Positions 11,631-51,993 of a stretch of DNA of 64,000 nt are shown here, in pieces (position 1 is the first letter of the stretch; each line of letters begins with the position of its first letter). Origin of the DNA: an uncultured Elusimicrobia bacterium (GTDB lineage Bacteria; Elusimicrobiota; Elusimicrobia; Elusimicrobiales; UBA9959); contig CAIRNJ010000013.1 in the NCBI GenBank assembly GCA_903879915.1, positions 833 through 64,832 of the forward strand, in the 5' to 3' direction. Under the pieces are notes generated by a model. It was not told the DNA's origin. It saw only the letters and a list, made by a program, of their open reading frames with translations, and made no database searches. Both the position numbers and the translations under genes were made by a program.

Positions 11631-11653
11631 TTATGGGTCCGAAGAGCCGGCCG

Positions 11654-12919: not shown

Positions 12920-12949
12920 TTGACAATACGACGGTGAAATACATTTAAT
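12920..12949 (+). promoter_or_regulatory. candidate sigma70 promoter of ygeW-like gene
   Basis: TTGACA (12920-12925), 18-nt spacer, TTTAAT (12944-12949); about 40 nt upstream of ATG 12991, which has a GGAG 10 nt upstream. Confidence 0.4.
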
Positions 12950-12990
12950 TGAATAGCTATTTGCAGAACGAACCTCTGGAGATCAAAAAA

Positions 12991-15481: not shown

Positions 15482-15610
15482 TTGTTCCTCCGTAAAGATT
15501 CTGAGCGTGCTTACATTCTATTTAAAGCGAAAGGCCTTGTAAAACGTTTTCATAAGGACCCGCCGAAAATAAAATATAATGACGGTACTGTGAAGATCCG
15601 TCAGAAAACC

Positions 15611-24358: not shown

Positions 24359-24361
24359 AGG

Positions 24362-26525: not shown

Positions 26526-26638
26526 TTGCCGCCCGTTGTTTTCCACGCGCTTTTTACCGCCCAGGCCGGCCGCAAGGCCCGCCGCCGCTTTATATTGTAC
26601 TACATTGTTTTTTTGCGGCGGGCGGAAGGCCCGGCCCG

Positions 26639-28072
26639 TCAATCGTAGAGGGCGCGCACCATTTCCCACGGATGCGCGGCCTTCGCCGGGGTGACCGACA
26701 GCACGGACCTGGCCATGTTCAGGTACAGGGTCCGGTACCACTCCCGCTGCACCGGCGTACCGAACAGCAGCTTTTTGAACTGTTTAGGATGCAGCAGGTA
26801 GTTCCGGTGGAACCTGCGGTACTGCTTAAGGATGTGGGCCTTGCTCGGGATGAACTTCACGGTGTTATGGTAGAACATGTCGCCGCCGGGCAGGTCGAGC
26901 TGGGCCGTGGCGCGCGAGAAATCCGCCGTGCCGTGGCGCGGCTCGAAGATGGAGATGATCGGATAATCCGTCAGCTCGTCCGCGGCGCGGAACACGGCGT
27001 CCGTCTCCTCCTGCGTTTCATCCATGTAGCCTACCATCATGAAGCCGGCTATGAAGATGCCGGCCGCGCGCAGTATCTCCACGGCCCTGCGGCTGGTCTC
27101 CCCGTCGCTGGCCTTGGCGAAATCGGTCAGGATGCGGTTCACCGTGGTCTCTATGCCCAGCAGCGCCACGCGCATGCCGGCCCTGTAGGCGAGCTTCATC
27201 AGCTCCGGCGACCTGGCCACGGTGTCCGGGCGTATGAAAACTATGAAGTTCAGCTTGAGGTTCTCCCGCAGAATGCCCTCGAATATTTCGGTATAGCGCG
27301 CGGGGTCCGCGCAGAAGTTGTCGTCGGAGAACCAGATCCTGGTGAAGCCCAGGCGGTTCAGCGTGCGCAATTCCTCCAGCACGCGCGCCGGGCTCTTGAA
27401 GCGCTGCGTGTGCCCCCACATCTCGCTGGCCGCGCAGAAGCGGCAGCGGTGCTGGCAGCCGCGCGAGGTTTCGGCCGTGGTCGCGTAGCCTTTTATGGGC
27501 AGCGGCAGGCCGTAAAGCCCCGGGTCGTAAATGGTCCAGTCCGGCATCGGCAGGTCGTCCAGGTCGGCCGCCAGCTGTCTGGCCGGGTTCCGCCTGTAAT
27601 TCCTTTCGCCGTCCTTCCAGGACAGGCCAGCTATGCCGTCGTAAGGCCCGCCCTTCCCGATGGCGGCGAGCAGCTCCGTTATGGTCCGCTCGCCTTCGTT
27701 CCTGACCACGAAATGCGCGCCGCGGCCGAGCCATTCGAAATCGTAAGCGGTGGCGTGGTGGCCGCCCAGTATTATCGGCTTGCCGGGCGCCGTGTCCAGC
27801 AGGTGCCTGACGTTCGCCTCCACGTTGAGCGCGCCTATGCTGGAATGCGCGTTGACCAGCACCGCGTCGGCCTCCCGGGCCCGCCGCGTGAGCTCGGCCA
27901 GCGTATAGTCGCCGGCCAGGCCGTCCATGAACTCCGCGTCGTAGCCCTTCAGCGCGCCGCGCAGCTGCGCGAAGGCCAGCGTGGGAGAATTGCCGAGCAG
28001 CCCGGTGAAATCGTCCGGCATGGGCCAGCGCTCGTAAACGCGCAGCGGCTGCAGCATCAGTATCTTCTTCAT
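26639..28072 (-). CDS. B12-binding-domain (class B) radical SAM protein, subtype A
   Basis: 477 aa from ATG 28072 (overlaps upstream stop, TGATG); ILGGHHAT in N-terminal Rossmann-like domain; SRGCQHRCRFC. Confidence 0.75.
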   Translation of the reverse strand: MKKILMLQPLRVYERWPMPDDFTGLLGNSPTLAFAQLRGALKGYDAEFMDGLAGDYTLAELTRRAREADAVLVNAHSSIGALNVEANVRHLLDTAPGKPIILGGHHATAYDFEWLGRGAHFVVRNEGERTITELLAAIGKGGPYDGIAGLSWKDGERNYRRNPARQLAADLDDLPMPDWTIYDPGLYGLPLPIKGYATTAETSRGCQHRCRFCAASEMWGHTQRFKSPARVLEELRTLNRLGFTRIWFSDDNFCADPARYTEIFEGILRENLKLNFIVFIRPDTVARSPELMKLAYRAGMRVALLGIETTVNRILTDFAKASDGETSRRAVEILRAAGIFIAGFMMVGYMDETQEETDAVFRAADELTDYPIISIFEPRHGTADFSRATAQLDLPGGDMFYHNTVKFIPSKAHILKQYRRFHRNYLLHPKQFKKLLFGTPVQREWYRTLYLNMARSVLSVTPAKAAHPWEMVRALYD

Positions 28073-29508
28073 CAGCTCTCCTTGAGGCGGCGGAAAGAGG
28101 CGTAATTGCGGAACAGGTTGAATACCCGCGCCGGGATCTCCCAGCCGAAAGGGCCGTCCCTGACTATGCGGTAAGCCCGCGCGGGGTTGAGATAGAAACC
28201 GTAATAGGCCCACCGGTAAAGCATGCGGTAGGTGCGGTCGGACATGGCGCTGGCGTTGAAGGGCGCGCCGAAATACTCAAAATCGATCGGGTTCACGTCG
28301 GAACGCAGCTTGCCGGCCTTCGCGAACATGTCGTACATCTCGGTATTGCGGAAAGGGTTGGGGTTGAAGAACATCGCGAGGTGCAGGCGCGAGGCGTGCG
28401 CGAAGCGTATGGTGGCGCGCAGCTCGGCCTCGGTCTCCGTCGGCAGGCCCAGCATGAAGAAGCCGCGGGTAAAGATGCGCCGGTCGGCCAGCATGTCTAT
28501 GGTGCGGCTTACCCTGGCCAGGGAAAGGTTCTTCTTCAGCAGCTTCTGCAGGCGCTCCGAGACCGTTTCCACCGCCACGGACACCTCGCCGACCCCGACG
28601 CGCTTGAGCAGGTCCACGGAGGATTCGCGGATCAGGTCGGCGCGCACGGCGTTGGGGAAGCTCAGCACCGACTGCAGGTTCCGCTCCAGCAGCATTTCCA
28701 GCATGCGGTCGAAGCGGTCCGGGTCGAAATTGGAGATATCGTCCAGCACCTCTATGCTCTTCGTGCCCAGCCGGTGTATCATGGCCACTTCTTCGGCCAC
28801 GTTCTCGGGGGAGCGGGCGCGGAAGGTCTTGCCGAAGATCTGGTGGCAGAACACGCAATGGTACGGGCAGCCGCGCGAGGTGAAGATCGGCATGTACGGC
28901 CTTATGCCCACCGAGGCCATGCCGCCTATTTTCCAGAACTTTTTATAGTCTATCAGGTCCCAGGCCGGGAAGGGCAGCGAGTCCAGGTCCGTTATGGGGG
29001 CCCGGGGCGCGGAAAGCTCCGTTCTTCCGTCGCAGCGGAAAGCCAGGCCGGCCACCGCGCGCAGCGCCGCCGGCTCGAGCCAGCGCGGGCCTTCTTCCGC
29101 GATGACGCGCACCAGCTCGGTGAAAGTCTCCTCGCCCTCGCCTATAACGGCCGCGTCCACGCTGGCGTCCGCAAGCGCGCCGGCCGGGTCCGAAGTGGCG
29201 TGCGGACCGCCCATGACCACCGGCGTACCCGGGCTTTCGGCCTTTACGGCGGCGGCTATCCTGTGGGCCAGGAAGGATTCGGCCGTGAGCGAGCTTATGC
29301 CCACGACGTCAGGCTTCAGCCCGCGCAGCGCCGAGCGCACGGCCCCGAGCGCGTCAGGCTCCAGCGCCGCGTCCACCACGCGCACCACGGCGCCGAGGCG
29401 CTGCCTGAGGCGGGCGGCGATGTAAAGTATGCCCAGCGGCGGCGTGGTTCCGTTTATCTTGGAGACCAGGCTGCGGCTTTTGACCAGCAGCACCAGCGGT
29501 TTTTTCAT
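28072..29508 (-). CDS. B12-binding-domain (class B) radical SAM protein, subtype B
   Basis: 478 aa; VMGGPHAT; SRGCPYHCVFC; about two-thirds identical by eye to 34029-35477. Confidence 0.75.
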   Translation of the reverse strand: MKKPLVLLVKSRSLVSKINGTTPPLGILYIAARLRQRLGAVVRVVDAALEPDALGAVRSALRGLKPDVVGISSLTAESFLAHRIAAAVKAESPGTPVVMGGPHATSDPAGALADASVDAAVIGEGEETFTELVRVIAEEGPRWLEPAALRAVAGLAFRCDGRTELSAPRAPITDLDSLPFPAWDLIDYKKFWKIGGMASVGIRPYMPIFTSRGCPYHCVFCHQIFGKTFRARSPENVAEEVAMIHRLGTKSIEVLDDISNFDPDRFDRMLEMLLERNLQSVLSFPNAVRADLIRESSVDLLKRVGVGEVSVAVETVSERLQKLLKKNLSLARVSRTIDMLADRRIFTRGFFMLGLPTETEAELRATIRFAHASRLHLAMFFNPNPFRNTEMYDMFAKAGKLRSDVNPIDFEYFGAPFNASAMSDRTYRMLYRWAYYGFYLNPARAYRIVRDGPFGWEIPARVFNLFRNYASFRRLKES

Positions 29509-30923
29509 GATACCCTGGCCCTCCAGCCGAGAGCCTGGGCGGCCTTCCCCAGCACGAAATAGACGGCGCCGCGGTAAGCCCGGCGCATGAAGGTGCGTAT
29601 TACCCGGTTGGGATGCGCCAGCGTGAAAAGCGTGTCCGGCAGGGCGTAATGCAGGGCCAGCAGGCCGAAATAGCCCAGCTGCACCAGTCCCGGGTTATGG
29701 GCGCCGCTGATGAGGTATTTGCCCTCGTAAAAATCGGCCGGGTCCCTTGAGCTGAGCTGCCCGGAGCCGGCCAGGTCCTCATAGAGCCGCGAGCCCGGCA
29801 CCGGCGTGTAGATGGTCATGCGGAAAACATCCGAGTTGCGCCGGCCGTGGAAGAAAGTGGCCAGGTTGTCCCTGAGCCCGCTGGCCGGCCCGCCGAACAC
29901 GTGCGTGCCGTATACCGCCACGCCGTTGCGGCGCAGTATCCGGGAGGCCTCGCGGTTTATCCGCGCGGAGTTGCCCTTGGCGTACTCCTCCTGCACGGCG
30001 GAGGTGTAGCCCTCGAAGCCCACCACGGCCATGAACATGCCGGCGCGCGCGCCCGCTTCTACCAGGTCCGGGTTGGCGAGTATAATGTCGGCGCGCATCT
30101 GCACGCCGAAGCGCAGGTCCATCCTTTCGCGCAGCATGGTCTCGAAGATCTCGCGGGCTATCTGCGGCCTGGTCGCGAAAGAGTCGTCGTTGAACGAGAA
30201 CTCGGTGACGCCCAGGGCCTTCAGCCGGCGCAGCTCGTCCAGTATCCGCCCGGCGGATTTATAGCGCGGCGCCCCGTAGTAGCCGGGGATCGAGCAAAAG
30301 GTGCAGCGGAACGGGCAGCCGCGCGTGGTCTCCACGGCGGCGAAAAGGCCGTTCGAGAAGGAGGCCTTTTTCAGCGAGCCTTCCCAGCAGGGCATCGGCA
30401 GGCTGTCCAGGTCGCAGGCCACGCGCTCCGTCGCGGAGCGCTTCATGGTGCCGTCGGCCGCGCGCCAGGCGCAGCCTTTCAGGCCGTCGAGAGAGGCGCC
30501 GGAGAGCAGGGCTTCCGCCAGGGGGACCACGGTAGCCTCGGCTTCGTACAGCGCCACGGCGTCGAAGGGGCCGGCGGGACCGAGAAAGAGCTCGGGACAG
30601 AAAGTGGGGGCCTGGCCGCCGGCCAGCAGCTTCACCCGGGGATAGCGGCGCCGTACCGCGCGGGCGGTCGCTATCACTACCGGCGCGTTGGCCAGCTCGG
30701 AGTTGGAGAAGCCTATTATGTCCGGCTTGAATTCGTCTATCGCCCGCAGGAGCTCCGGGTGCATGGGCGGCAAATGCTGCACGTCCGCTATCCTCGCCTC
30801 GTGGCCGGCGGCGCGCAGCACGCCGGCGAGTATCTGCAGGCCCAGCGGCGGGATGTTGGGGAACAGCACCTGAAGGGTGTGGAACGGAAGCCAGGGGGGC
30901 GTAGTAAGGAGTATTTTTGCCAT
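29505..30923 (-). CDS. B12-binding-domain (class B) radical SAM protein, subtype C
   Basis: 472 aa; LLAGGQAPT; TRGCPFRCTFC; ATGA overlap with the downstream gene. Confidence 0.75.
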   Translation of the reverse strand: MAKILLTTPPWLPFHTLQVLFPNIPPLGLQILAGVLRAAGHEARIADVQHLPPMHPELLRAIDEFKPDIIGFSNSELANAPVVIATARAVRRRYPRVKLLAGGQAPTFCPELFLGPAGPFDAVALYEAEATVVPLAEALLSGASLDGLKGCAWRAADGTMKRSATERVACDLDSLPMPCWEGSLKKASFSNGLFAAVETTRGCPFRCTFCSIPGYYGAPRYKSAGRILDELRRLKALGVTEFSFNDDSFATRPQIAREIFETMLRERMDLRFGVQMRADIILANPDLVEAGARAGMFMAVVGFEGYTSAVQEEYAKGNSARINREASRILRRNGVAVYGTHVFGGPASGLRDNLATFFHGRRNSDVFRMTIYTPVPGSRLYEDLAGSGQLSSRDPADFYEGKYLISGAHNPGLVQLGYFGLLALHYALPDTLFTLAHPNRVIRTFMRRAYRGAVYFVLGKAAQALGWRARVS

Positions 30924-30943
30924 TGCAGCTGTTTTTAACTATA

Positions 30944-32503
30944 TCACATGCGGCCGCCGCGTAAAAGTCCCCGGCCCGGATGCCGGCCGGTACGGCGGGC
31001 CAAAGCGGCCATGCGCTCTTCGGAAGTATGCTTGCGCACCAGCGCGTCCTGCAGCCCGGCGGGCGGGACCCCTTTGAAATTGAGCAGCGTCAGGTAATCC
31101 TTCAGGCCGTCCAGCGTGAGCGCCGCGAATTCCTTCAGCAGGAAACGGTACATGTGCCGCACGAAGAGGCGCTTGGACTCCTTGCCCGAGAAGGCCTGGA
31201 ACGGGAGCCTGAAGAGCAGCTGCCGCATGAACAGCTGCATCGCTCTCGGCACGTTCTTCTCTGCGCCCTTCAGGCTGGGGATGCGCACGTCGTGGTAGAA
31301 CATGTCCTTGGCCAGCAGGCCGCGCTGCTCGTAGTCGTCGTAATCCGGCGTGCCCTTCATCGGCTGCAGGGCGTTCACCAGCGGGATATCGCACCACTGC
31401 TGGTGCAGCCGCATCGTCTCCGGGATATCCTCCACGCGCTCGCCCGGGTGGCCTACCAGCAGGAAACCGAAAACCAGTATCCCCGCCCTGTCCAGCAGGC
31501 GGAAGATCTCCGGGTAGGTGGACACCTCGGCGCCGCCGTCCGGGCCCTTGCCCCAGCGGCTGAGCATTTGCTGGCTGGGCGATTCAAAACCGACGAAGAC
31601 CGACTTGCAGCCGGAGCGGGCCAGCAGTTCCGGCAGCGCGGGCTCCCTGATTATGGAATCCACGCGCATGAACGACATCCAGTGCATGTCTATGCCGGCC
31701 TTTATCATCGCGCGCGCCAGCTCCATGTGGTACTCCGGCGGGTTGCCGAAGCCGTCGCCGACGAAGAGCAGCTGGTCCGCCCCCATGGCCGCCAGCTTCT
31801 TAAGGTCGTCCAGCACCCTGGGGATGGCCCGGTAGCGCTGCCTGCCGTCCCACATGCGCGTGGCCAGACAGAAGGAACAGCTGTTGGTGCAGCCGCGCGA
31901 GGTCTCGAGCGAGACGGTGAGGCCGCGGCGGCGGGTGAACTGGCGGTAGCAGCCGAGGTCCATCAGGTCCCAGCGCGGAAAAGGCAGGCTGTCCAGGTCC
32001 GGCACGAGTTCGCGCGCGGGAGTGCGCACGATCTTTCCGCCCTCGGCGAAAGAGATCCCGTTCACGCCGTGGAAGCTGCGCTTTTTTTCAATACATTCGA
32101 GCAGTTCCGCCATGGTATGCTCGCCTTCGCCGTGCACGATCACGGAGGCCCCGCGCGCCAGCCACTCGCCCGGGTAGAAGGTCGGGTGGTGTCCGCCCAT
32201 TATTATCGGCACGCCGGGCCTGAGCCGGCGCACAAGGCGCACGGTTATCTCGGCGTTGAGCGCCAGCTGCGAAGCCGAGCAGGTGATGCCCACCGCGTCG
32301 GCCTCCGCCACCCAGCGCCCGAATTCCTTCAGGTCGATACCGGAGGCTATCGGGTCCAGTATGCGCACCTTCCAGGACGGGCCGGCCATGGCCGCCAGCT
32401 GGGCCAGCGTGACGGGCGGATGCGGGCCCCAGACCATGGGGAAGTCGTTGGCGGACATGAAGCGCGGGACCGCCCGCAGCGGGGTCGTGAGCAGAAGGTT
32501 CAT
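30944..32503 (-). CDS. B12-binding-domain (class B) radical SAM protein, subtype A
   Basis: 519 aa; IMGGHHPT; SRGCTNSCSFC; similar to 26639 and 32500 (GEGEHTMAELL / DLDSLPFPRWDL). Confidence 0.75.
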   Translation of the reverse strand: MNLLLTTPLRAVPRFMSANDFPMVWGPHPPVTLAQLAAMAGPSWKVRILDPIASGIDLKEFGRWVAEADAVGITCSASQLALNAEITVRLVRRLRPGVPIIMGGHHPTFYPGEWLARGASVIVHGEGEHTMAELLECIEKKRSFHGVNGISFAEGGKIVRTPARELVPDLDSLPFPRWDLMDLGCYRQFTRRRGLTVSLETSRGCTNSCSFCLATRMWDGRQRYRAIPRVLDDLKKLAAMGADQLLFVGDGFGNPPEYHMELARAMIKAGIDMHWMSFMRVDSIIREPALPELLARSGCKSVFVGFESPSQQMLSRWGKGPDGGAEVSTYPEIFRLLDRAGILVFGFLLVGHPGERVEDIPETMRLHQQWCDIPLVNALQPMKGTPDYDDYEQRGLLAKDMFYHDVRIPSLKGAEKNVPRAMQLFMRQLLFRLPFQAFSGKESKRLFVRHMYRFLLKEFAALTLDGLKDYLTLLNFKGVPPAGLQDALVRKHTSEERMAALARRTGRHPGRGLLRGGRM

Positions 32504-34032
32504 CGGCCGGCCTTCCGCGCGAGCCGCGCGATATTTTTTCCCGAAAGATATTTCCCGCGCAGGTATTCGATAAGCCCCTCTTCGCCGGCGCGGCGGCCTT
32601 TTAAAAGGAACCAGAAAAAGTCTCCCAGGTTCTGCGGGTTCGCCCTGGGGAGGCCGCCGGCGAACCAGGAGTACAGGGCTATTTCCACCGGCCGCAGCTC
32701 CGGGTCCAGCATGCGCCGCAGCGCGCGGACGGGATTCAAAAGGTAGCGCAGGAAAAAGCGGTTGTAGGCGGCCAGTATAGGCCTGGTGCCGCGCACCGCC
32801 ACCGTGAAGGAGTCGTGGTAGAACATCTCCTTGGCCAGCAGGCCGTCCTGCCTGGTCTTGCGGTAGCCGGCCGTGCCGGGCAGCGGCTTGTACACCGTTA
32901 CCACGGGGTAATCGCAGAAGCGGTGGGCGTTCTCAAGGGTCTGTACGGCCGAAGCCTGGCTCTGGCCCGGGTAGCCGATAACGAAAAAGCCGAAAACGGC
33001 GATCCCGGCGCTTTTAAGAAAACGGTACTCCTCCTCGTAAGACGGCAGGCCGGTGAAAGCCGCGTTGCCCTTGTTGAACTGCCTGAGATCGGCGCCCTCC
33101 ACGCTTTCGAAGCCCACGCAGGCGAACTTGAGCCCCGAGCCGGCGGCTTCGCGCAGCAGGCCGTGGTTGGCGCGAATGTAGTCATGGCGGAAAAAACCGC
33201 CCCAGTCGAAGCGCAGGTCCTCGCGGCGCATGCCTTCGTAAACTTTCGCCTGCCGGCCGGTGTCCAGGCTCGAGCCGTAATTATCGTCCACCACGAAAAG
33301 CTGCGTCACGCCGTTCTTCCTGAGCAGGCGCATTTCCTCCAGCACGCGTTCGGGGGATTTGAAGCGGTGGGTGTTCTTCCACATCGGGCCGACCTGGCAG
33401 AAAGCGCAGTGCTGCTCGCAGCCGCGCCCGGTCTCCAGGCAGGCGGCCCGGCCCGGCCTGCGGAAATAAAGGTTATAGCCGGAGAAATCGACCAGGTCCC
33501 AGCGCGGCAGCGGCAGGCTGTCCAGGTCCTGTATGAAAGGCCGGTCCGGGTTCCTGCGCGCCGCCCCGCCGCGGTCCCGCCAGGAGAGCCCGGCGACCCC
33601 GGCAAGCGGGGCGCCGGACTCCAGCGCGCCCACCAGTTCCGGGAAGGTCCGCTCGCCCTCGCTGCGCACTACGGCGTCGGCGCCGCGCTCCAGCCACTGG
33701 ACGTCCTGGAAGGTGGCGTGGTGCCCGCCCAGCACCACGGGCAGCGCCGGCCTGAGCTCCTTTATAAAGCGCAGGTTCAGCTCCGTGTTGAGCGCCGCGT
33801 AGGAGCACATCACGTTCATGCCGATAACGTCCGCCCAGCGTATCAGCGCGGCGTATTCTTTAAGCGGGACGTCGTAGGCGTTGCCGTCGTGTATGCGCAC
33901 CTCGTGCCCTTTCAGGGAGGCGGCCAGCTGCGGCATGGTGACAGGCGCGGCGTTGGTCACCATCTTGGTGGTGTCCGGGGTGGTGGGCCAGCGCCTGTAC
34001 AGGGCCTGCGGCGTGAGTATCAGTACTTTCAT
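32500..34032 (-). CDS. B12-binding-domain (class B) radical SAM protein, subtype A
   Basis: 510 aa; VLGGHHAT; GRGCEQHCAFC; ATGA overlaps at both ends. Confidence 0.75.
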   Translation of the reverse strand: MKVLILTPQALYRRWPTTPDTTKMVTNAAPVTMPQLAASLKGHEVRIHDGNAYDVPLKEYAALIRWADVIGMNVMCSYAALNTELNLRFIKELRPALPVVLGGHHATFQDVQWLERGADAVVRSEGERTFPELVGALESGAPLAGVAGLSWRDRGGAARRNPDRPFIQDLDSLPLPRWDLVDFSGYNLYFRRPGRAACLETGRGCEQHCAFCQVGPMWKNTHRFKSPERVLEEMRLLRKNGVTQLFVVDDNYGSSLDTGRQAKVYEGMRREDLRFDWGGFFRHDYIRANHGLLREAAGSGLKFACVGFESVEGADLRQFNKGNAAFTGLPSYEEEYRFLKSAGIAVFGFFVIGYPGQSQASAVQTLENAHRFCDYPVVTVYKPLPGTAGYRKTRQDGLLAKEMFYHDSFTVAVRGTRPILAAYNRFFLRYLLNPVRALRRMLDPELRPVEIALYSWFAGGLPRANPQNLGDFFWFLLKGRRAGEEGLIEYLRGKYLSGKNIARLARKAGR

Positions 34033-35477
34033 GCGCCCGCCCCCGGCTCTTTCAGCCTGCGGAAGGAGACCACGTTGCGCAGCAGCTTGTAGGCGCGCGC
34101 CGGAATGTCGGAAAGGAAAGGCCGGTCCCTGGCTATCCGCCAGATACGGCGCGGGTCGAAATAGAAGCCGTAATACGCCCAGCGGTACAGCATGCGGTAG
34201 CGGCGGTCCGGGACCTCGCTGCCGTTGAAAGGCGCGCCGTAATACTCGAAGTCCACGGTCCTGGCTTCGGCCGGCAGCTTCCCCGCCCCGGCGAACATCC
34301 CGTAAAGCCCGGTGTTGCGGAACGGGTTCGGAGTGAAGAAAAGGGCGAGATGCAGCCTGGAAGCGTGGGCGAAGCGTATGGTGGAGCGCATCTCGGCCTC
34401 CGTCTCGGTAGGCAGGCCCAGCATGAAGAAGCCCCGCGTAAAAATGCGCTTTGAGACCAGCAGGTCGATGGCCCGCCCGGCCTTCTCCGGCGAAAGGTTC
34501 TTGTTCAGCAGCTTCTGCAGGCGCTCCGAGGCGGTCTCCACGGCCACCGAGACCTCGCCGGCGCCCACGCGTTTAAGCAGGTCCACCGAGCTTTCGCGCA
34601 GCAGGTCGGCGCGCACCGCGTTCGGGAAGCTGAGCACCGGGCGCAGGTCCCTTTCCAGCAGCAGCCCCAGCATGCGGTCAAAGCGGTCCGGGTCGAAATT
34701 GGCGATATCGTCAAGCACCTCTATATGTCCCGCGCCGAGCTTTTTTATCTCGGCCGCCTCGTCCGCCACGCTCTCCGGAGAGCGGGCGCGGAAGACCTTG
34801 CCGAAGAGCTGGTGACAGAACACGCAGCGGTAGGGGCAGCCCCTGGAGGTGAACATCGTGAGGTAGGGCCTTATGCCCAGGCTGGCCATGCTGGGCCGCG
34901 TCCAGAACTTGCGGTAGTCTATCAGGTCCCACGCGGGGAAAGGCAGCGCGTCCAGGTCCCTTATCGGTTCGCGCGGCGCGGAAAGCTCCACCCCGTTCCC
35001 GCCGCGGAAAGCGACGCCTTTCACGGCGCGCAGCGCCTCCGGGCCGAGCCCGGCCCGCCCCTCTTCGGTCAGAAGCCGCGTCAGCTCGGTGAAGGTCTCC
35101 TCCCCCTCGCCTATAACTGCCGCGTCCACGTTGGGGTCCTTAAGGGCCAGCTCCGGGTCGGCCGAGGGGTAGGGGCCGCCCATGACCACCGGGACGGCCG
35201 GGCCCTCCGCCTTTACCGCCGCGGCCAGGGCGTGCGCGGGGAAAGCTTCGGCCGTCAGCGCGCTTATGCCGGCCACGTCGGGCTTGCATGTCCGCACGGC
35301 GTCGCGCACGGCCCTGAGCGGGTCGGTCTCCAGCGCCGCGTCGATGATGCGCACTTCCGCCCCGAGGCTCTTGCGCAGGCAGGCGGCTATATATAGCAGG
35401 CCCAGCGGCGGGGTGCTGCCGCTGACCTTCGAAGCCACGCTGCGGCTCTTTATAAGAAGTACTGCCGGACGCCTCAT
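34029..35477 (-). CDS. B12-binding-domain (class B) radical SAM protein, subtype B (first gene of the operon)
   Basis: 482 aa; VMGGPYPS; SRGCPYRCVFC; paralogue of 28072-29508. Confidence 0.75.
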   Translation of the reverse strand: MRRPAVLLIKSRSVASKVSGSTPPLGLLYIAACLRKSLGAEVRIIDAALETDPLRAVRDAVRTCKPDVAGISALTAEAFPAHALAAAVKAEGPAVPVVMGGPYPSADPELALKDPNVDAAVIGEGEETFTELTRLLTEEGRAGLGPEALRAVKGVAFRGGNGVELSAPREPIRDLDALPFPAWDLIDYRKFWTRPSMASLGIRPYLTMFTSRGCPYRCVFCHQLFGKVFRARSPESVADEAAEIKKLGAGHIEVLDDIANFDPDRFDRMLGLLLERDLRPVLSFPNAVRADLLRESSVDLLKRVGAGEVSVAVETASERLQKLLNKNLSPEKAGRAIDLLVSKRIFTRGFFMLGLPTETEAEMRSTIRFAHASRLHLALFFTPNPFRNTGLYGMFAGAGKLPAEARTVDFEYYGAPFNGSEVPDRRYRMLYRWAYYGFYFDPRRIWRIARDRPFLSDIPARAYKLLRNVVSFRRLKEPGAGA

Positions 35478-35567
35478 AATACAATAATATAATAATATGA
35501 GCTTTCGGCATAAGGCCTTCTAATAAAGCCGGGCTGCCGCGGCGGCAGGAATTTGTACAATATTTTC
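35478..35567. promoter_or_regulatory. AT-rich divergent promoter region between the B12-rSAM operon and the polyferredoxin gene
   Basis: Only AT-rich stretch for many kb (aatacaataatataataatatga ... ttgtacaatatttt); small hairpin ctgccg-cgg-cggcag at 35534-35548; exact -10/-35 elements not assignable with confidence. Confidence 0.4.
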
Positions 35568-36704
35568 ATGGGAACGCGCTCCGTCCTGCGGACAACGCTG
35601 CTGGCGCTGCCGATGCTGGCGGTCACGGCCGCCGTATTCGCTGGCGGCGGGCTGCCGGCCGCCCCCGCCCGGCTGGCGGCGCTGGCGCTCATCTACGCCG
35701 CCTTCAACGCCGCTTTCATTTTAACGGTACATACCGGCAAGACCGACCGCTGGCGCGCCCCCGTCTATATTTCCTGCGCGTTCCTTTTCGCCGTCTCGTT
35801 CCTGGGCAACCTGCTGGAATTGAGCTCCGCCCCGGGCTACACGGCCGATTTCCTGTTCAAAGACGGGGCGTCCATCTGCCATATCGCCCTGCCGATGCTC
35901 CTTCTCCCGGCCGCTATCACAAGAACGCTGCTCTGGCCGGGCTCCGTTTCCGGCTCTTACGCCTCGGCCGCGTCGGTGCTGGTCGCCTGGCTGGGAGCCT
36001 CGCTGGCCCTGGGCCGCGGCTGGTGCAGCTGGGGCTGCTTTTTCGGGGGATTCGAGGACGGCTTCTCGCGTATCCTGCCGGTCCCGGTCATTAAAGATCC
36101 GCCTAAATGGCTCCTCAACCTCCCGCTGGCCCTGCTGATAATGTTCACGCTGCTTTCGGCCGCCACGCTGTTCCCGGCCTACTGCGTGGCGCTCTGCCCG
36201 TTCAAGACCGTGACCGAGCTGCCGGCCGGGAGTTCTCCGGGAGAGCTGGTCCGCGTCGGGATATACCTCTCGGTCTTCCTTTCCATGGTGGTGGCGCTGC
36301 CGCTGCTGTTGAAGCGGCGCGCGCAGTGCTCTTTCCTCTGCCCGCTCGGAGCGCTGCAGACCGGGGCCAATTTCATAGACCCTTTCGCCGTTAAAGTGGA
36401 CGCCGGAGCCTGCGTCAGATGCGGCGCCTGCGTGAAGGCCTGCCCCGCTTTCGCCATGACCGAAGAAAGCCTGGCCCTGGGCCGGGCCGGCAGGGCCTGC
36501 ATGACATGCGGAAAATGCGCGGATGTCTGTCCCGCCGGCGCCGTATATTTTCACGTGAAAGGGACCCCGGCGGACTCCGGCAGGGAATTGGCGCGCGTGC
36601 TGTTCCTGTACCCTGCTTTCCTTTTTCTGGCGGCCTTTGCCGGCGGAACCTGCGTTGACGGCGCGGCCAGGCTGATAAATCTTTTCGCGGGGAGGCTGTT
36701 CTGA
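35568..36704 (+). CDS. membrane-bound polyferredoxin (NapH/MauN/NosR-like 4Fe-4S protein)
   Basis: 378 aa from ATG 35568 (TTG 35553 possible); multiple TM segments; CSWGCFFGG motif; two ferredoxin motifs CVRCGACVKACP and CMTCGKCADVCP. Confidence 0.65.
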   Translation: MGTRSVLRTTLLALPMLAVTAAVFAGGGLPAAPARLAALALIYAAFNAAFILTVHTGKTDRWRAPVYISCAFLFAVSFLGNLLELSSAPGYTADFLFKDGASICHIALPMLLLPAAITRTLLWPGSVSGSYASAASVLVAWLGASLALGRGWCSWGCFFGGFEDGFSRILPVPVIKDPPKWLLNLPLALLIMFTLLSAATLFPAYCVALCPFKTVTELPAGSSPGELVRVGIYLSVFLSMVVALPLLLKRRAQCSFLCPLGALQTGANFIDPFAVKVDAGACVRCGACVKACPAFAMTEESLALGRAGRACMTCGKCADVCPAGAVYFHVKGTPADSGRELARVLFLYPAFLFLAAFAGGTCVDGAARLINLFAGRLF

Positions 36705-36784: not shown

Positions 36785-37165
36785 GTGTTCTTAGGCGGGG
36801 CGCTGGCAGGCCGTACCGGCGTTAAGGTCTCGCCGCGCTTCACCGGCGGGGAAGTGGCCCGGGTGAAGGACCACGGCGCCTACAGGACCAGCGTGCACCG
36901 CCCGGTCTTCTACGGGCTGTTCGGCGAGAGGCGCGAGGGGTTCGTGCAGGTGGACTGGGAGCCGGTCACCGCGCTGCCGGAAAGCATACGCGAGGAAATA
37001 GACGTTTTCGGGGACGGGGCGTCCGGTTTCTATATCTCGCTTAACACCGCCGACGGCAGGGCCGGGTACGAGAACAAGCCGCCCGGCGTGAGAGGGAACC
37101 CCAAGCCGGCGCGGCTGCGGTCCGGCTGGGCCATACGCATAAAGGTCAGGAATCCCGGGAAATAG
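36785..37165 (+). CDS. hypothetical protein (start uncertain)
   Basis: 126-aa ORF from GTG 36785; the same frame is open from 36659 and encodes a signal/TM-like KPRLRTVLGYAWAALAAPLVVAAATQA with only a CTG (36701) as possible start. Confidence 0.3.
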   Translation: MFLGGALAGRTGVKVSPRFTGGEVARVKDHGAYRTSVHRPVFYGLFGERREGFVQVDWEPVTALPESIREEIDVFGDGASGFYISLNTADGRAGYENKPPGVRGNPKPARLRSGWAIRIKVRNPGK

Positions 37166-39072: not shown

Positions 39073-39084
39073 GGTCAGATTCTA

Positions 39085-42788: not shown

Positions 42789-44138
42789 ATGCCGGAACTT
42801 AACGAACCTGTTTTTGACGCCTTCCTGGCCGCCCTCAGGCGCCTGGACTACACCGGCTACGCCGAGCAATACCCGCCTTTCGGCAGCTGGACGGATTTTA
42901 CCGGGCGGCAGGCCGACATACTGGCGGCCTGGCGCAGAAGCCTGGCGCGCGTGCGGGAGGCCGGGCTCTTCGTAAACATCCCTTTCTGCAGGTCCAGGTG
43001 CAGGTTCTGTTTCCTGCCGGTTACGCCCATAGGCTCGTCCGGCCCGGGGAGGGAGCGCTCTTTCGCGCAATACCTGGAGGCCCTGGACGGCGAAGCCTCC
43101 GTCTTTTCCCCGGTCTTTAAAAAGATCCGCATGTCGACGCTCTACATAGGCGGCGGCACGCCTTCGCTGATGACCCCGGCCGAGACCGCCCGCTTCTTCG
43201 CCCTGCTGCGCGGGCACTTCAATATTCCGCCCGGCTGCCAGGTGGTCCTGGAGCTGCACCCCGACGACGTTACCGGCGAAAAGCTTTCAGTTTACAGGGC
43301 CTGCGGCGTGAACCGGGTCTGCATAGGCGTGCAATCCATGGACAAGGCGGTGCTCACGAAGAACGCCAGGCGCCAGGAGCTGGGCCGCGTGGCCGCCGCC
43401 CACGCCGCGCTCAAGGCGCACGGCATAAGCGGCGTCAACATCGACCTTATCTGCGGCCTGCCCGGGCAGGGGAAAGCCAGCTTCCTGAGGGACCTGGCCA
43501 GTGTGATAGCCCTGCGCCCCGACCAGGTGCACCTGAACACGTTCATCAACACGCCTTACACCCTTCACGCCATGGCCGGCGGCCGCGCCGGGAACGAACG
43601 CGCGGTCGAGGCCGTCAGGAGCGAGGGCTTCAGGGAGCTTGCCAAAGCCGGCTATCAGAAGATCGATTCGGACTCTATGGGCCTGACCCCGGACTCGCGC
43701 AACCGCCAGACCGCGGACCTGAGCGGCAGGCGGTCCGTGCTGGGCCTGGGCCCCGGCGCCGTTTCGCGCGCTTTCGGCGCGGCGCGCTACATAAACCGGC
43801 CGGATTGGGAAGGCTACAGGGAGCTGGCCGCCAAGGGCAGGCCCCCGGTCGTGAAAGGCGTACTGTGCGGGCCGCGCGACGAGATGATCTATTCAGCCGT
43901 CACAAAACTCACCGACGGCCTGTCCGTAGACCTGGGGGAATTCCGCCGGACCTACGGCAAAAGTTTCAGCGAAGCTTTCCCCGCCGAGACCGCAGAACTC
44001 AGGCGCGCCGGCGCCCGCTTCTCCGGCGGCAGGCTTAAACTGGCGCGGAACATGTGGGGGCTCGTCAGGCGGGTTTTTTACCAGCCTGACGTCATAGCCC
44101 GCGGCCTCGCCAACCTCAGGTCAGCGCGAAAGGGCTGA
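42789..44138 (+). CDS. HemN/HemW-family (class C-like) radical SAM protein
   Basis: 449 aa; FVNIPFCRSRCRFCF; LYIGGGTPS; IGVQS; DLICGLPGQ. Confidence 0.75.
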   Translation: MPELNEPVFDAFLAALRRLDYTGYAEQYPPFGSWTDFTGRQADILAAWRRSLARVREAGLFVNIPFCRSRCRFCFLPVTPIGSSGPGRERSFAQYLEALDGEASVFSPVFKKIRMSTLYIGGGTPSLMTPAETARFFALLRGHFNIPPGCQVVLELHPDDVTGEKLSVYRACGVNRVCIGVQSMDKAVLTKNARRQELGRVAAAHAALKAHGISGVNIDLICGLPGQGKASFLRDLASVIALRPDQVHLNTFINTPYTLHAMAGGRAGNERAVEAVRSEGFRELAKAGYQKIDSDSMGLTPDSRNRQTADLSGRRSVLGLGPGAVSRAFGAARYINRPDWEGYRELAAKGRPPVVKGVLCGPRDEMIYSAVTKLTDGLSVDLGEFRRTYGKSFSEAFPAETAELRRAGARFSGGRLKLARNMWGLVRRVFYQPDVIARGLANLRSARKG

Positions 44139-45764: not shown

Positions 45765-45767
45765 AAA

Positions 45768-51596: not shown

Positions 51597-51691
51597 CTTT
51601 AGGCGCTGACGTACGCGGAGCTTACCGCCGCCGGCGCGCCCGCGAAACCGCGGGCGCTGCGGGCGAACCCGTGAAACCGCTCAACTCCGCG

Positions 51692-51982: not shown

Positions 51983-51993
51983 AACCGGCTCCT

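What the first reader, a model, noticed from the sequence alone, without database searches (positions are those of the whole stretch)
26639..35477. Six consecutive, translationally coupled B12-domain radical SAM genes (order B-A-A-C-B-A)
Six 472-519 aa ORFs in a row each have an N-terminal B12-type domain (GG(H/P)H(A/P)T-like motif) and an (S/T/G)RGCxxxCxFC motif. Junctions are ATGA or TGATG overlaps, except one 20-nt gap (30924-30943). By eye they form three subtypes: A is 26639, 30944 and 32500; B is 28072 and 34029, about two-thirds identical over the first 60 residues; C is 29505. Tandem class-B rSAM arrays this long suggest iterative C-methylation or other B12-dependent radical chemistry on one substrate. 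Known precedents with multiple class-B enzymes include polytheonamide and bottromycin (peptides), MCR modifications, and hopanoid or GDGT lipid tailoring. A lipid or cofactor substrate therefore cannot be excluded.
Basis: partly seen in the sequence, partly recalled or inferred. Interest (0 to 1): 0.82.

Follow-up and report, generated by a model that had tools for sequence, protein, structure and literature searches.

The report
Six-gene cobalamin radical-SAM operon, Elusimicrobia
Six back-to-back genes for vitamin-B12-dependent radical enzymes are real and conserved in free-living Elusimicrobia, but they are two three-gene modules joined together, match no characterised enzyme family, and most likely tailor a sugar-containing cell-envelope molecule rather than a peptide or pigment.

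Summary
Six minus-strand genes (26639-35477; 482/510/519/472/478/477 aa) each carry a B12-binding domain, a radical SAM core and one CxxxCxxC motif. Junctions are ATGA or TGATG overlaps, apart from the 20-nt gap. The B pair is 71% identical, the A trio 34-39%, and C 27-31% to all others.

New findings:
- The source is an Elusimicrobiota genome, 97-99% identical to a Lac Pavin MAG.
- The array is two conserved triads, B-A-A and C-B-A. They occur separately in other Elusimicrobia, and the 20-nt gap is the seam between them.
- All six are distinct orthogroups. The three searched (B, A, C) are essentially Elusimicrobia-restricted. None reaches any curated family cut-off (BchE, HpnJ/R, PhpK, ApyD, MgmA, RiPP C-methyltransferases).
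- The array sits in an island of about 20 radical SAM genes.
- Recurrent non-rSAM partners are nucleotide-sugar enzymes: a UDP-galactopyranose-mutase-like flavoenzyme, an RmlA-like nucleotidylyltransferase translationally coupled to a seventh B12-rSAM, a GT2, and a NapH-like membrane ferredoxin.

Best model (about 0.4): sequential cobalamin-dependent radical tailoring of a nucleotide-sugar-derived envelope glycoconjugate. Rivals are peptide (HXS-like neighbours), isoprenoid lipid, and tetrapyrrole cofactor. It is an interesting lead, not a new kind of system.

The parts
34029..35477 (-). g1, class-B radical SAM enzyme, orthogroup B1. First gene of module I.
   Evidence: PF02310 87 bits and PF04055 74 bits. 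CxxxCxxC at 214-221. AlphaFold2 model pLDDT 90.5, and the best PDB folds are the class-B enzymes MgmA, TsrM, OxsB, CysS and TokK. Orthologues are 63-98% identical in Elusimicrobia.
32500..34032 (-). g2, class-B radical SAM enzyme, orthogroup A1. ATGA overlap with g1.
   Evidence: Orthologues are 65-98% identical and always lie directly after a B-type gene.
30944..32503 (-). g3, class-B radical SAM enzyme, orthogroup A2. Last gene of module I here.
   Evidence: Orthologues are 56-98% identical and follow g2-type genes.
30924..30943 (-). 20-nt gap, the seam between module I (B-A-A) and module II (C-B-A). It contains a TATAGT -10-like box.
   Evidence: Sequence. A promoter-like match spans 30965-30938 (a consensus match only). 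The modules occur separately in L002, L006, L011 and in L014-L016.
29505..30923 (-). g4, class-B radical SAM enzyme, orthogroup C. First gene of module II.
   Evidence: About 46 orthologue clusters at 43% identity or more; every one that carries an organism name is from Elusimicrobia, and the next hits are at 34% or less. C followed by B is the most conserved adjacency.
28072..29508 (-). g5, class-B radical SAM enzyme, orthogroup B2. It is 71% identical to g1.
   Evidence: Module-II B genes are 71-74% identical to g5 but 64-66% to g1, so B1 and B2 are separate orthogroups.
26639..28072 (-). g6, class-B radical SAM enzyme, orthogroup A3. Last gene; TGATG overlap with g5.
   Evidence: Orthologues of 477 aa at 70-79% identity in L008 and L014-L016, and 98% in L004.
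35478..35552 (.). 75-nt AT-rich divergent intergenic region. Probable promoter region for the array and for the ferredoxin gene.
   Evidence: Sequence. No Rfam family such as a cobalamin riboswitch was found. Promoter function is inferred.
35553..36704 (+). NapH/MauN-like polytopic membrane protein with 4Fe-4S motifs, transcribed divergently from g1. Candidate electron donor.
   Evidence: Fer4 family hits and NapH family 49 bits, below cut-off. A copy at 55-58% identity sits in the same divergent position in L002, L003, L006, L007 and L011.
36785..37165 (+). Small conserved protein downstream of the ferredoxin gene. No family match. The upstream frame encodes a hydrophobic segment, so the true start is probably earlier.
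   Evidence: 60% identical to the 169-aa protein in the same position in L006. No Pfam or NCBIfam hit.
50451..51596 (-). Non-B12 radical SAM enzyme (type 'rY', PapB-like N-terminus). Probable accessory of the pathway.
   Evidence: PF04055, no curated family. Homologues (34-36% in L008 and L013; same size and domains in L084) lie immediately upstream of the B12 array in L008, L013 and L084.
48903..50264 (-). UDP-galactopyranose-mutase-like flavoenzyme of the eukaryotic type.
   Evidence: PDB 4dsg aligned over residues 25-451, E 8e-43; 3ute E 5e-43. The motifs PHVFF, FPFQDNI, RPYNxKxW, RGG, WxYxP...PFYR, YPxP and GRFGxW...NxDHS are conserved. Protoporphyrinogen oxidase matches only at the FAD motif (E 1e-3). 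It recurs next to B12 genes in L001, L008, L084 and L086.
47962..48906 (-). Sugar-1-phosphate nucleotidylyltransferase (RmlA/GalU/AglF-like). ATGA overlap with the mutase gene.
   Evidence: PF00483. NCBIfam hits of 104-114 bits, all below cut-off. PDB RmlA E 1e-15. Junction.
46499..47965 (-). g7, a seventh class-B radical SAM enzyme. ATGA overlap with the nucleotidylyltransferase gene.
   Evidence: PF02310 and PF04055. 27-31% identical to g1-g6. Orthologues at 54-73% in L001, L006, L009, L014, L019 and L084. Junction.
45768..46502 (+). GT2 glycosyltransferase (244 aa), tail-to-tail with g7. Its N-terminus resembles the polyprenyl-phosphate glycosyltransferases ArnC and DPMS.
   Evidence: ORF and IIPAYN...DDGSTDGT motif. 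PDB ArnC E 2e-7 and DPMS E 6e-7. A GT2 of 249 aa lies in the same position in L084.
44121..45794 (-). Polytopic membrane protein with a C-terminal beta-propeller-like domain, divergent from the GT2. The start is uncertain.
   Evidence: Translation. Only weak propeller hits. Homologues at 55% next to B12 genes in L009 and L017. Any role is inferred.

Best explanation
SHOWN:
- The six genes encode six non-redundant class-B radical SAM enzymes. Each has a Rossmann-type B12 domain, a SAM-cleaving [4Fe-4S] core and no auxiliary cluster.
- They are the fusion of two conserved three-gene modules, B1-A1-A2 and C-B2-A3.
- They belong to a radical-SAM-rich island of free-living Elusimicrobiota; the three types searched in the protein database (B, A1, C) are essentially restricted to that phylum.

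INFERRED:
- The six enzymes act one after another on one non-peptide substrate. Most likely this is a nucleotide-activated sugar, or the glycoconjugate made from it.
- An RmlA-like nucleotidylyltransferase makes an NDP-hexose. A UDP-galactopyranose-mutase-like flavoenzyme contracts it to the furanose.
- The class-B enzymes (g1-g6 plus g7) then use 5'-deoxyadenosyl radicals and cobalamin to install C-methyl groups or C-C rearrangements at unactivated carbons.
- The divergently encoded NapH-like membrane ferredoxin supplies the electrons that reduce the clusters and the cobalamin.
- A small ArnC/DPMS-like GT2 and a polytopic membrane protein pass the modified sugar to a polyprenyl carrier and on to an envelope acceptor.

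Confidence differs by layer. It is above 0.9 for 'six distinct class-B rSAMs forming two conserved modules of one pathway'. It is about 0.4 for the sugar/glycoconjugate substrate. The type of chemistry (methylation versus rearrangement) is open.
For: Class-B identity:
- Both Pfam domains above cut-off in all six genes.
- One CxxxCxxC each and no DxHxxG. Per PMC12931638, DxHxxG is the motif of His-on B12 enzymes, whereas solved class-B rSAM enzymes bind cobalamin base-off.
- The g1 model (pLDDT 90.5) superposes on MgmA, TsrM, OxsB, CysS and TokK at TM 0.62-0.70.

Non-redundancy and modules:
- Every gene has its own orthologues at 56-83% identity in other Elusimicrobia, against 27-39% to its paralogues.
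- B-A-A, with the ferredoxin gene, stands alone among housekeeping genes in L002, L003, L006, L007 and L011. C-B-A stands alone in L014-L016, 15-29 kb away on the same contigs.
- The modules are fused only in the window, L004 and L008. L013 has the order C-B-A-A.

Restriction to one phylum.

Sugar link:
- The mutase-like gene, the nucleotidylyltransferase and g7 overlap by ATGA.
- In L008 the mutase and transferase genes follow g6 directly in one same-strand gene run.
- L084 has C-B-(CrtI-like)-mutase-transferase-g7-GT2. In L001 the pair is divergent from g1.
- Mutase active-site motifs are conserved.
- GT2s are present. Relatives add a sugar epimerase/dehydratase, a GT28 and a polysaccharide deacetylase.

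No peptide: the minimal loci have no small ORF or peptide-maturation gene.

Precedent, from established knowledge and PMC12931638: the class-B enzymes GenK, GenD1, Fms7 and MoeK5 C-methylate sugars, HpnJ contracts a sugar ring, and OxsB rearranges a deoxynucleotide.
Against: - There is no experimental datum. Class-B chemistry and substrate cannot be read from sequence (PMC12931638).
- In the window the sugar module lies 11 kb from g1, with a radical SAM cassette and a HemN-like gene in between.
- Module I occurs with no sugar gene within 10 kb in L002, L006 and L011.
- In L001, L009 and L084 the B-type gene is followed by a CrtI-family desaturase, which points to an isoprenoid or lipid chain.
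- HxsB/HxsC-like peptide-type maturases flank the array here and in L004, L009, L013 and L018.
- The GT2 matches to ArnC and DPMS are weak and N-terminal only.
- Co-location was assessed on about 15 genomes with flanks of at most 10 kb, without phylogenetic correction.
Confidence: 0.4

Rival explanations
1. Peptide or protein tailoring. The class-B enzymes C-methylate or cross-link a ribosomal peptide or protein belonging to the flanking HXS-like radical SAM systems. This would make the island a large RiPP-type or effector-maturation cluster, possibly defensive.
For: - HxsB lies above the NCBIfam cut-off at 24362-25801 (443 bits), 840 nt downstream of g6, and at 53323-54792 (482 bits).
- A 96-aa peptide with nine HxS repeats lies at 51692-51982.
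- HxsC-like genes flank the array in the window, L004, L009, L013 and L018.
- In L085 a B-type gene is translationally coupled to an operon of HxsC-like and U32-like genes.
- ApyD and RiPP C-methyltransferase models give E-values of 1e-18 to 1e-35.
- HXS maturation by rSAM enzymes is documented (PMC13128918).
Against: - Module I with its ferredoxin stands alone in L002, L003, L006, L007 and L011, with no Hxs-like gene and no small ORF.
- The same-strand gene run in L008 carrying all six genes contains none.
- Scores against RiPP methyltransferase families are 3- to 7-fold below cut-off.
- A 116-nt AT-rich spacer separates g6 from the next gene.
- All HxsC-like genes are far below cut-off.
- The published HXS system has no B12 enzyme: the term occurs 0 times in PMC13128918.
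Confidence: 0.2
2. Isoprenoid or membrane-lipid tailoring. The enzymes methylate or cyclise unactivated carbons of a lipid chain, in the manner of HpnP/HpnR, GDGT ring synthases or ladderane enzymes.
For: - A CrtI-family desaturase of 516-518 aa directly follows the B-type gene in L001, L009 and L084. It scores 229.8 bits on TIGR02734 against a cut-off of 238, and matches PDB 4rep at E 6e-42.
- The partner ferredoxin is membrane-bound.
- g1 and g5 align to the HpnJ model along its whole length (101.8 and 113.6 bits), and g4 is closest to HpnR (132 bits).
- This reading is compatible with a glycolipid, so it overlaps the best explanation.
Against: - No CrtI-like gene is in the window.
- No squalene or phytoene synthase, cyclase, fatty-acid or ether-lipid gene was seen in the window or in the annotated relatives.
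- HpnJ, HpnR and ladderane scores are 4- to 6-fold below cut-off.
Confidence: 0.15
3. Tetrapyrrole or novel-cofactor biosynthesis. The array is part of the radical SAM suite that Meheust et al. (2020) found around group VI nitrogenase paralogues in groundwater Elusimicrobia. It would modify a porphyrinoid, in the manner of BchE, BchQ or BchR.
For: - BchE is the top NCBIfam model for g1, g5 and g6 (136-166 bits).
- A HemN-like rSAM lies at 42789-44138 and recurs in L008 and L013.
- An earlier report describes up to 13 rSAM genes, some B12-fused, next to NflH/D/K (10.1101/765248). That function is still unknown in 2026 (PMC13474568).
Against: - No NifH-type P-loop was found in the window or in any of the 83 loci then held.
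- No tetrapyrrole synthesis gene was seen.
- The flavoenzyme partner is a UDP-galactopyranose-mutase homologue, not a protoporphyrinogen oxidase (1e-43 versus 1e-3).
- BchE scores are only about a third of the cut-off.
- HemN-like proteins also include class-C methyltransferases unrelated to haem (established knowledge).
Confidence: 0.1
4. No common pathway. The genes are neighbours only because paralogues accumulate in a plastic island. The two modules, or even single genes, would serve unrelated substrates.
For: - The modules occur separately, and gene content around them varies strongly between genomes.
- L086 carries eight or more other B12-rSAM genes of unrelated subtypes.
Against: - There is tight translational coupling within each triad.
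- The same gene order is conserved at 56-83% identity across genomes.
- Both modules are kept in the same genomes (L006/L016, L007/L014, L011/L015). They are repeatedly fused or rearranged into one operon (window, L008, L013).
Confidence: 0.1

Closest known systems
MgmA, the MCR glutamine C-methyltransferase (PDB 9ccb), with the other solved class-B rSAMs TsrM, OxsB, CysS and TokK
   Same: Same two-domain architecture: an N-terminal Rossmann B12 domain and a radical SAM barrel. MgmA is the best sequence hit for g1 (60 bits) and the best fold hit (E 4e-24, TM 0.65-0.74).
   Different: Only 17-22% identity. The TIGR04014 score is 64-96 bits against a cut-off of 360. The host is a bacterium without MCR. 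The C-terminal domains differ.
BchE, the anaerobic Mg-protoporphyrin IX monomethyl ester cyclase (TIGR02026)
   Same: Best-scoring curated model for g1, g5 and g6. It is a class-B enzyme that does non-methylating chemistry.
   Different: Scores are 105-166 bits against a cut-off of 481. The alignments stop before the BchE C-terminal region for g1, g2, g4, g5 and g6 (model end 386-397 of 497); g3 reaches 441. There are no photosynthesis or tetrapyrrole genes nearby.
Clusters with several class-B rSAM tailoring enzymes: gentamicin (GenK/GenD1), pactamycin (PctJ/N/O), bottromycin (BotRMT1-3), polytheonamide (PoyB/C), bacteriochlorophyll (BchQ/R)
   Same: Several paralogous class-B enzymes in one cluster, each acting at a different carbon of one scaffold. 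GenK, GenD1, Fms7 and MoeK5 act on sugars (PMC12931638 and established knowledge).
   Different: Here there are six, plus a seventh nearby, in direct translationally coupled tandem. They form two modules in an uncultivated anaerobic phylum with no known product. Direct sequence comparison with these enzymes could not be run because no sequences were available.
HpnJ, the hopanoid-associated class-B rSAM (TIGR03471)
   Same: g1 and g5 align to the model over its whole length, including the C-terminus. HpnJ is thought to contract a sugar ring, which is sugar-directed class-B chemistry.
   Different: 102-114 bits against a cut-off of 578. There are no hopanoid genes in the window or in relatives.
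Radical SAM suites next to group VI nitrogenase paralogues in Elusimicrobia (Meheust et al. 2020)
   Same: Same phylum and habitat type. Dense clusters of rSAM genes, some B12-fused, of unknown function.
   Different: No NifH-like gene was found in the window or within 10 kb of any orthologous locus examined. The paper does not describe the B-A-A and C-B-A modules or the sugar link.

Membership tests
Class-B (cobalamin-dependent) radical SAM superfamily | N-terminal Rossmann-type B12-binding domain (PF02310) | tested here: met
   All six genes score above the gathering cut-off, 35.4-87 bits against 32.1. g6 is the weakest at 35.4.
Class-B (cobalamin-dependent) radical SAM superfamily | Radical SAM core with a CxxxCxxC [4Fe-4S] motif (PF04055) | tested here: met
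   30.9-79.5 bits against a cut-off of 29.5. One CxxxCxxC per protein, at residues 203-221.
Class-B (cobalamin-dependent) radical SAM superfamily | Fold shared with solved class-B enzymes | tested here: met
   Tested for g1 only. Model pLDDT 90.5 and pTM 0.91. Top Foldseek hits are MgmA, TsrM, OxsB, CysS and TokK. AprD4, which does not bind cobalamin, also ranks high, so fold alone does not prove cobalamin binding.
Class-B (cobalamin-dependent) radical SAM superfamily | Actual binding of base-off cobalamin | not testable with these tools
   The absence of DxHxxG is consistent with the base-off/His-off mode (PMC12931638). Binding itself needs biochemistry.
BchE (TIGR02026) | Whole-protein score at or above the curated cut-off of 481 | tested here: not met
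   105.7-165.7 bits for the six genes.
Hopanoid enzymes HpnR (TIGR04367) and HpnJ (TIGR03471) | Score at or above cut-off (650 and 578), with hopanoid genes nearby | tested here: not met
   Best HpnR score is 132 bits (g4). Best HpnJ score is 114 bits (g5). No squalene-hopene cyclase or hpn gene was found among the scanned window ORFs.
RiPP class-B C-methyltransferases (TIGR03975; ApyD NF050148) | Score at or above cut-off (282 and 750), with an adjacent precursor peptide | tested here: not met
   At most 105 and 122 bits. No small ORF or leader-peptide gene is present in the minimal loci L002, L003, L006 and L011.
MCR glutamine C-methyltransferase MgmA (TIGR04014) | Score at or above a cut-off of 360 | tested here: not met
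   64-96 bits.
PhpK / P-methyltransferases (TIGR04479, NF038361) and the ladderane-type lipid rSAM (TIGR04072) | Score at or above cut-off (600, 575 and 360) | tested here: not met
   Best scores are 130, 114 and 110 bits.
Sugar-acting class-B methyltransferases (GenK, GenD1, Fms7, MoeK5) | Sequence clustering with these enzymes | not tested
   No sequences or curated models of these enzymes were available in the tools. The resemblance rests only on gene context.
UDP-galactopyranose mutase (for the partner gene 48903-50264) | Full-length homology with conserved flavin and UDP-sugar motifs | tested here: inconclusive
   Eukaryotic-type UGMs match at E 1e-43 over residues 25-451, with the His, Arg and Tyr motifs conserved. 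The bacterial UGM model TIGR00031 gives only 39 bits against a cut-off of 304. Substrate identity is unknown.
HXS antiphage system (for the flanking genes, not the array) | HxsB, HxsC and HxsD together with an HxS-repeat effector | tested here: inconclusive
   HxsB is above cut-off twice (443 and 482 bits). A nine-repeat HxS peptide is present. An HxsD-like protein scores 40.9 bits against a cut-off of 50. All HxsC-like genes are below cut-off, and the gene in the HxsC position (51994-53241) has no rSAM hit.
Group VI nitrogenase-paralogue rSAM locus (Meheust 2020) | NflH/D/K genes adjacent to the rSAM suite | tested here: not met
   No KGG[IV]GKS P-loop was found in six-frame translations of the window and the 83 loci then held. 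No Fer4_NifH or Oxidored_nitro hit appeared among the scanned ORFs. This is only a motif test, limited to flanks of 10 kb.

The most novel reading that the evidence does not exclude
The island makes an envelope glycoconjugate whose furanose sugar is rebuilt by six or seven successive cobalamin-dependent radical steps, giving poly-C-methylation and/or C-C branching. That would be the first case of a class-B radical SAM 'assembly line' acting on a nucleotide- or polyprenyl-linked sugar. Its product would be a new class of highly branched sugars or glycolipids, specific to anaerobic Elusimicrobia and a possible biomarker.
Probability: 0.22. Interest if true: 0.75.

Novelty: new member of a known kind. 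Interest (0 to 1): 0.55.

Why it matters
Class-B radical SAM enzymes carry out some of the hardest C-H functionalisations known. More than 100 sequence groups exist, and most, including the largest, are uncharacterised (PMC12931638). This locus offers six distinct, phylum-restricted orthogroups in a defined order. It also offers a compact variant in L008, where all six genes lie in one same-strand gene run with an accessory rSAM, a UGM-like mutase and a nucleotidylyltransferase. That variant could be expressed heterologously.

If the sugar model holds, the locus would extend class-B chemistry to nucleotide-sugar or envelope-glycan tailoring. It would also give a first function to part of the large radical SAM expansions noted in groundwater and lake Elusimicrobia since 2020.

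If the model fails, the module structure still helps. B-A-A with its membrane ferredoxin, C-B-A, and the conserved C-to-B pair tell experimenters which proteins to co-express.

Tried and rejected
- Exact-sequence look-up of g1 found nothing on record. The source was instead identified through homologues.
- I compared neighbourhoods of the 20 more distant g1 homologues (34-42% identity: Planctomycetota, Omnitrophota, Deltaproteobacteria, Azospirillum and others). The 74 flanking ORFs shared no family except further B12-rSAMs, so this gave no functional hint.
- A NifH P-loop motif scan of the window and the 83 loci then held found nothing. The link to the published nitrogenase-paralogue loci is therefore not supported at this range.
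- An Rfam scan of the window found no family, so there is no cobalamin riboswitch.
- PADLOC gave only weak generic radical SAM similarity (PDC-M51A 29-46 bits; pVip 31-52 bits for the non-B12 genes). There is no evidence that the array is a defence system.
- I considered protoporphyrinogen oxidase or phytoene desaturase identity for the flavoenzyme at 48903-50264 and rejected both in favour of UDP-galactopyranose-mutase homology.
- The 72-aa minus-strand ORF at 35474-35692 upstream of g1 is not a credible precursor peptide. It lies antisense within the start of the ferredoxin gene.
- The promoter and terminator scan is not significantly enriched (3 found against 1.7 expected). I use it only as a remark on the seam.
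- My first crude gene map missed the GT2 at 45768-46502 and over-extended the neighbouring membrane protein. Both were corrected.

Full report
**Observation**

The six reading frames exist as described, on the minus strand:

| Gene | Coordinates | Length |
|---|---|---|
| g1 | 34029-35477 | 482 aa |
| g2 | 32500-34032 | 510 aa |
| g3 | 30944-32503 | 519 aa |
| g4 | 29505-30923 | 472 aa |
| g5 | 28072-29508 | 478 aa |
| g6 | 26639-28072 | 477 aa |

- Third-position GC of 0.85-0.88 against second-position GC of 0.45-0.49 marks them as the coding frames in this 65% GC window.
- All six pass Pfam's gathering cut-offs for both the B12-binding domain and the radical SAM core.
- Each has a single CxxxCxxC at residues 203-221 and a GG(P/H/Q)x(A/P)(T/S) loop near residue 100. 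None has a second cysteine cluster or a DxHxxG motif. That motif marks the base-off/His-on B12 enzymes; solved class-B radical SAM enzymes bind cobalamin base-off without it (PMC12931638).
- The junctions are ATGA, ATGA, a 20-nt gap, ATGA and TGATG.
- g1 and g5 are 71% identical, with 40 of the first 60 residues matching. g2, g3 and g6 are 34-39% identical to each other. g4 is 27-31% identical to all others.
- An AlphaFold2 model of g1 (pLDDT 90.5, pTM 0.91) finds the solved class-B enzymes MgmA, TsrM, OxsB, CysS and TokK as its best structural neighbours.

**Source**

The closest relative of the locus is contig JAPLKJ010000292.1 of 'Elusimicrobia bacterium LacPavin_0920_WC70_MAG_61_9'. It is 97-99% identical at the protein level and syntenic. 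BamA, OmpH and DsbD genes elsewhere in the window fit a diderm bacterium.

**The array is composite**

I compared all ORFs of 25 Elusimicrobia loci with the window proteins. Each of the six genes has its own orthologues at 56-83% identity, while paralogues stay at 27-39%.

- The two B genes are separable. Module-I copies are 74-79% identical to g1 and 69-70% to g5. Module-II copies are 71-74% identical to g5 and 64-66% to g1.
- B-A-A, usually followed by a fourth B12 gene of about 528 aa, lies alone in L002, L003, L006, L007 and L011. In L002, L006 and L011 its flanks are shikimate-pathway, release-factor, MetH and glycogen genes. It is always preceded by a divergent NapH-like membrane ferredoxin gene and, where the flank is long enough, a small conserved ORF.
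- C-B-A lies alone in L014-L016. Two of these are on the same contigs as module I, 15 and 29 kb away.
- The two triads are joined only in the window, its near-identical relative L004, and L008. L013 has the order C-B-A-A.
It carries a TATAGT box, which is only a consensus match.
- C followed by B is the most widely conserved adjacency.

**Distribution**

B-type orthologues form more than 120 clusters at 51% identity or more. Where these carry an organism name they come almost entirely from Elusimicrobia. The exceptions are a few contigs binned as Smithella.

| Type | Orthologue clusters | Next-best hits |
|---|---|---|
| C (g4) | about 46, at 43% identity or more | 34% or less |
| A1 (g2) | about 22, at 45% identity or more | — |

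At least 15 of the 23 long contigs carrying a C-type gene appear also to carry a B-type gene. This is inferred from matching contig lengths.

Outside the phylum, g1 homologues are at most 42% identical. They mostly stand alone or beside one or two further B12 genes, and their neighbourhoods share nothing else.

**No known family**

Against NCBIfam, every gene hits many class-B models at E 1e-10 to 1e-48. None comes near a curated cut-off. PoyB/C, GenK, Fom3, HpnP and GrsA/B could not be compared individually.

| Family | Best score (bits) | Cut-off (bits) |
|---|---|---|
| BchE | 166 | 481 |
| HpnJ | 114 | 578 |
| HpnR | 132 | 650 |
| PhpK | 130 | 600 |
| ApyD | 122 | 750 |
| MgmA | 96 | 360 |
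| RiPP C-methyltransferase | 105 | 282 |
| Ladderane type | 110 | 360 |

**Context**

The array sits in an island of about 20 radical SAM genes between roughly 14.4 and 54.8 kb. Seven have B12 domains, the seventh being 46499-47965. Thirteen do not.

The non-B12 genes fall into three paralogous types:
- HxsB-like SPASM enzymes, two of them above the HxsB cut-off.
- HxsC-like enzymes, all below cut-off.
- A PapB-like 'rY' type.

They form cassettes on both sides of the array. A peptide with nine His-x-Ser repeats lies at 51692-51982. HXS is now known as an antiphage system in which rSAM enzymes mature an HxS-repeat effector (PMC13128918).

Meheust et al. (10.1101/765248) reported suites of up to 13 rSAM genes, some B12-fused, beside group VI nitrogenase paralogues in Elusimicrobia and proposed tetrapyrrole chemistry. 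That function remains unknown (PMC13474568). I found no NifH-type P-loop in the window or in any of the 83 loci held at that point.

**What the partners say**

The non-rSAM genes that recur next to these B12 genes are nucleotide-sugar enzymes.

- Gene 48903-50264 aligns over its full length with eukaryotic-type UDP-galactopyranose mutases (E 1e-43). The flavin-histidine motif, FPFQDNI, RPYNxKxW, PFYR, YPxP and GRFGxW...NxDHS motifs are conserved. Protoporphyrinogen oxidases match only at the FAD-binding motif.
- Gene 47962-48906 is an RmlA/GalU/AglF-like sugar-1-phosphate nucleotidylyltransferase.
- These two genes and the seventh B12 gene overlap by ATGA.
- Tail-to-tail with that B12 gene lies a 244-aa GT2. 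My first gene map missed it. Its N-terminus is closest to ArnC and dolichol-phosphate mannose synthase. A polytopic membrane protein with a beta-propeller-like C-terminus diverges from it.
- The same layout is found in L084.
- In L008 the mutase and transferase genes directly follow g6, and an rY gene directly precedes g1, so there all six genes lie in one same-strand gene run with them. In L001 the pair is divergent from the g1 orthologue.
- Relatives add a sugar epimerase/dehydratase, a GT28 and a polysaccharide deacetylase.

Against a pure sugar reading, L001, L009 and L084 place a CrtI-family desaturase directly after the B gene. L008 and L084 insert a YgeY-type M20 hydrolase upstream.

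**Mechanism proposed**

Shown:
- Six distinct class-B radical SAM enzymes.
- Two conserved, translationally coupled triads.
- A conserved divergent membrane ferredoxin.
- Recurrent linkage to a mutase, a nucleotidylyltransferase, a B12-rSAM and a GT2 set.

Inferred:
- An NDP-hexose is made and contracted to a furanose.
- The class-B enzymes then act in series at different unactivated carbons. Each reductively cleaves SAM to a 5'-deoxyadenosyl radical. Each uses cobalamin either as a methyl carrier (C-methylation) or as a radical partner (rearrangement).
- Electrons come from the NapH-like protein.
- The product is passed through a polyprenyl-phosphate carrier to an envelope acceptor.

I put about 0.4 on this substrate class. 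The rivals are peptide or protein tailoring tied to the Hxs-like cassettes (0.2), isoprenoid or lipid tailoring, which overlaps with a glycolipid (0.15), tetrapyrrole or cofactor synthesis (0.1), and no common pathway (0.1). Whether the chemistry is methylation cannot be decided from sequence (PMC12931638).

**Cobalamin supply**

No cob, cbi or btu gene appeared among the ORFs scanned in the window. In relatives, a B12-dependent methionine synthase lies two genes upstream of the module-I ferredoxin gene. The lineage therefore uses cobalamin.

**Verdict**

The locus is a set of new, phylum-restricted members of a known enzyme kind, with an unusual and experimentally tractable organisation. Interest is moderate, at 0.55.

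Noticed in passing
window 50451-55228 (-): An HXS-like system of unusual composition. In order: an HxsD-like protein (54758-55228; 40.9 bits against a cut-off of 50), HxsB (53323-54792; 482 bits), a 415-aa protein with no family hit in the place of HxsC (51994-53241), a 96-aa peptide with nine His-x-Ser repeats ending in SRGGWC (51692-51982), then a PapB-like rSAM. A similar HxsB / unknown / HxS-peptide trio occurs in L018/L085. The published HXS antiphage systems are 99.7% from Pseudomonadota.
   Followed up: partly
window 38041-42694 (-) and 19164-25801 (-): Two cassettes of non-B12 radical SAM genes flank the array. They consist of the same three paralogous types: HxsB-like (39085, 24362), HxsC-like (41564, 38041, 23465, 21361, 19164) and PapB-like (40491, 20354). 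No HxS-repeat peptide is associated with either cassette.
   Followed up: partly
window 17548-19148 (-); L085 5386-7913: A U32-family protein (UbiU-like, 51 bits) and an unknown 233-aa protein end the downstream cassette. In L085 two U32 paralogues bracket the unknown protein, like the UbiU/UbiV pairs used for oxygen-independent hydroxylation.
   Followed up: no
window 25803-26522 (-): A Dph6-like ATP pyrophosphatase (the diphthine-ammonia ligase family) lies directly upstream of HxsB 24362-25801 and overlaps it. The family recurs in L084. This suggests an ATP-dependent amidation step.
   Followed up: no
window 12949-14181 (+); L008 3316-4503; L084 6262-7449; L085 11523-13970: An aspartate/ornithine-carbamoyltransferase-fold gene of 410 aa lies at the edge of the island. 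Relatives carry it together with a YgeY-family M20 hydrolase (545 bits), which in L008 and L084 sits directly upstream of the B12 genes. Whether this is functional linkage or mere synteny is unclear.
   Followed up: partly
window 42789-44138 (+): A HemN-like radical SAM gene (best model the STM4012 family, 151 bits against a cut-off of 380; also ChuW/HutW and HemN) lies between the cassette and the membrane protein. It recurs in L013, and a more distant HemN-like gene (25%) occurs in L008 as a 746-aa fusion. It could be a class-C methyltransferase rather than a haem enzyme.
   Followed up: no
window 14369-16558 (+): A 729-aa protein whose C-terminal 300 residues are HxsC-like radical SAM. The N-terminal 430 residues have no family match. 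A homologue at 59% identity occurs in L009.
   Followed up: no
window 2001-8000 and 10001-12000: Composition departs from the window mean of about 0.65 GC. It is 0.52-0.55 across 2-8 kb, which holds a CsgG-like gene at 2398-3588, and 0.72 at 10-12 kb over the DsbD gene. The low-GC stretch may be foreign DNA.
   Followed up: no
L012, L020 (contigs binned as Smithella): B-type genes at 65-68% identity to g1 sit on contigs assigned to Smithella MAGs. This is either mis-binning of Elusimicrobia contigs or lateral transfer.
   Followed up: no
L086 (Elusimicrobia GWA2_61_42, MGUE01000023.1): At least nine B12-radical SAM genes lie within 21 kb. Only one is an orthologue of the window's types. One is an 855-aa fusion. 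They sit with a methyltransferase, a FemAB-like acetyltransferase and a sugar epimerase. Expansion of class-B genes is thus a general trait of these genomes.
   Followed up: no
window 26523-26638 and 35478-35552: Both intergenic regions bounding the array are AT-rich and contain a GTACAA core (TTGTACAAAT upstream of g1; GTAGTACAATATAAAG after g6). This could be a shared regulatory site or chance.
   Followed up: no
window 56786-58265 (-): A second short GT2 (244 aa; DPMS/GtrB/ArnC-like) is followed by a 253-aa protein with faint RmlA similarity. They lie at the far edge of the island, next to PhoH and BamA.
   Followed up: partly
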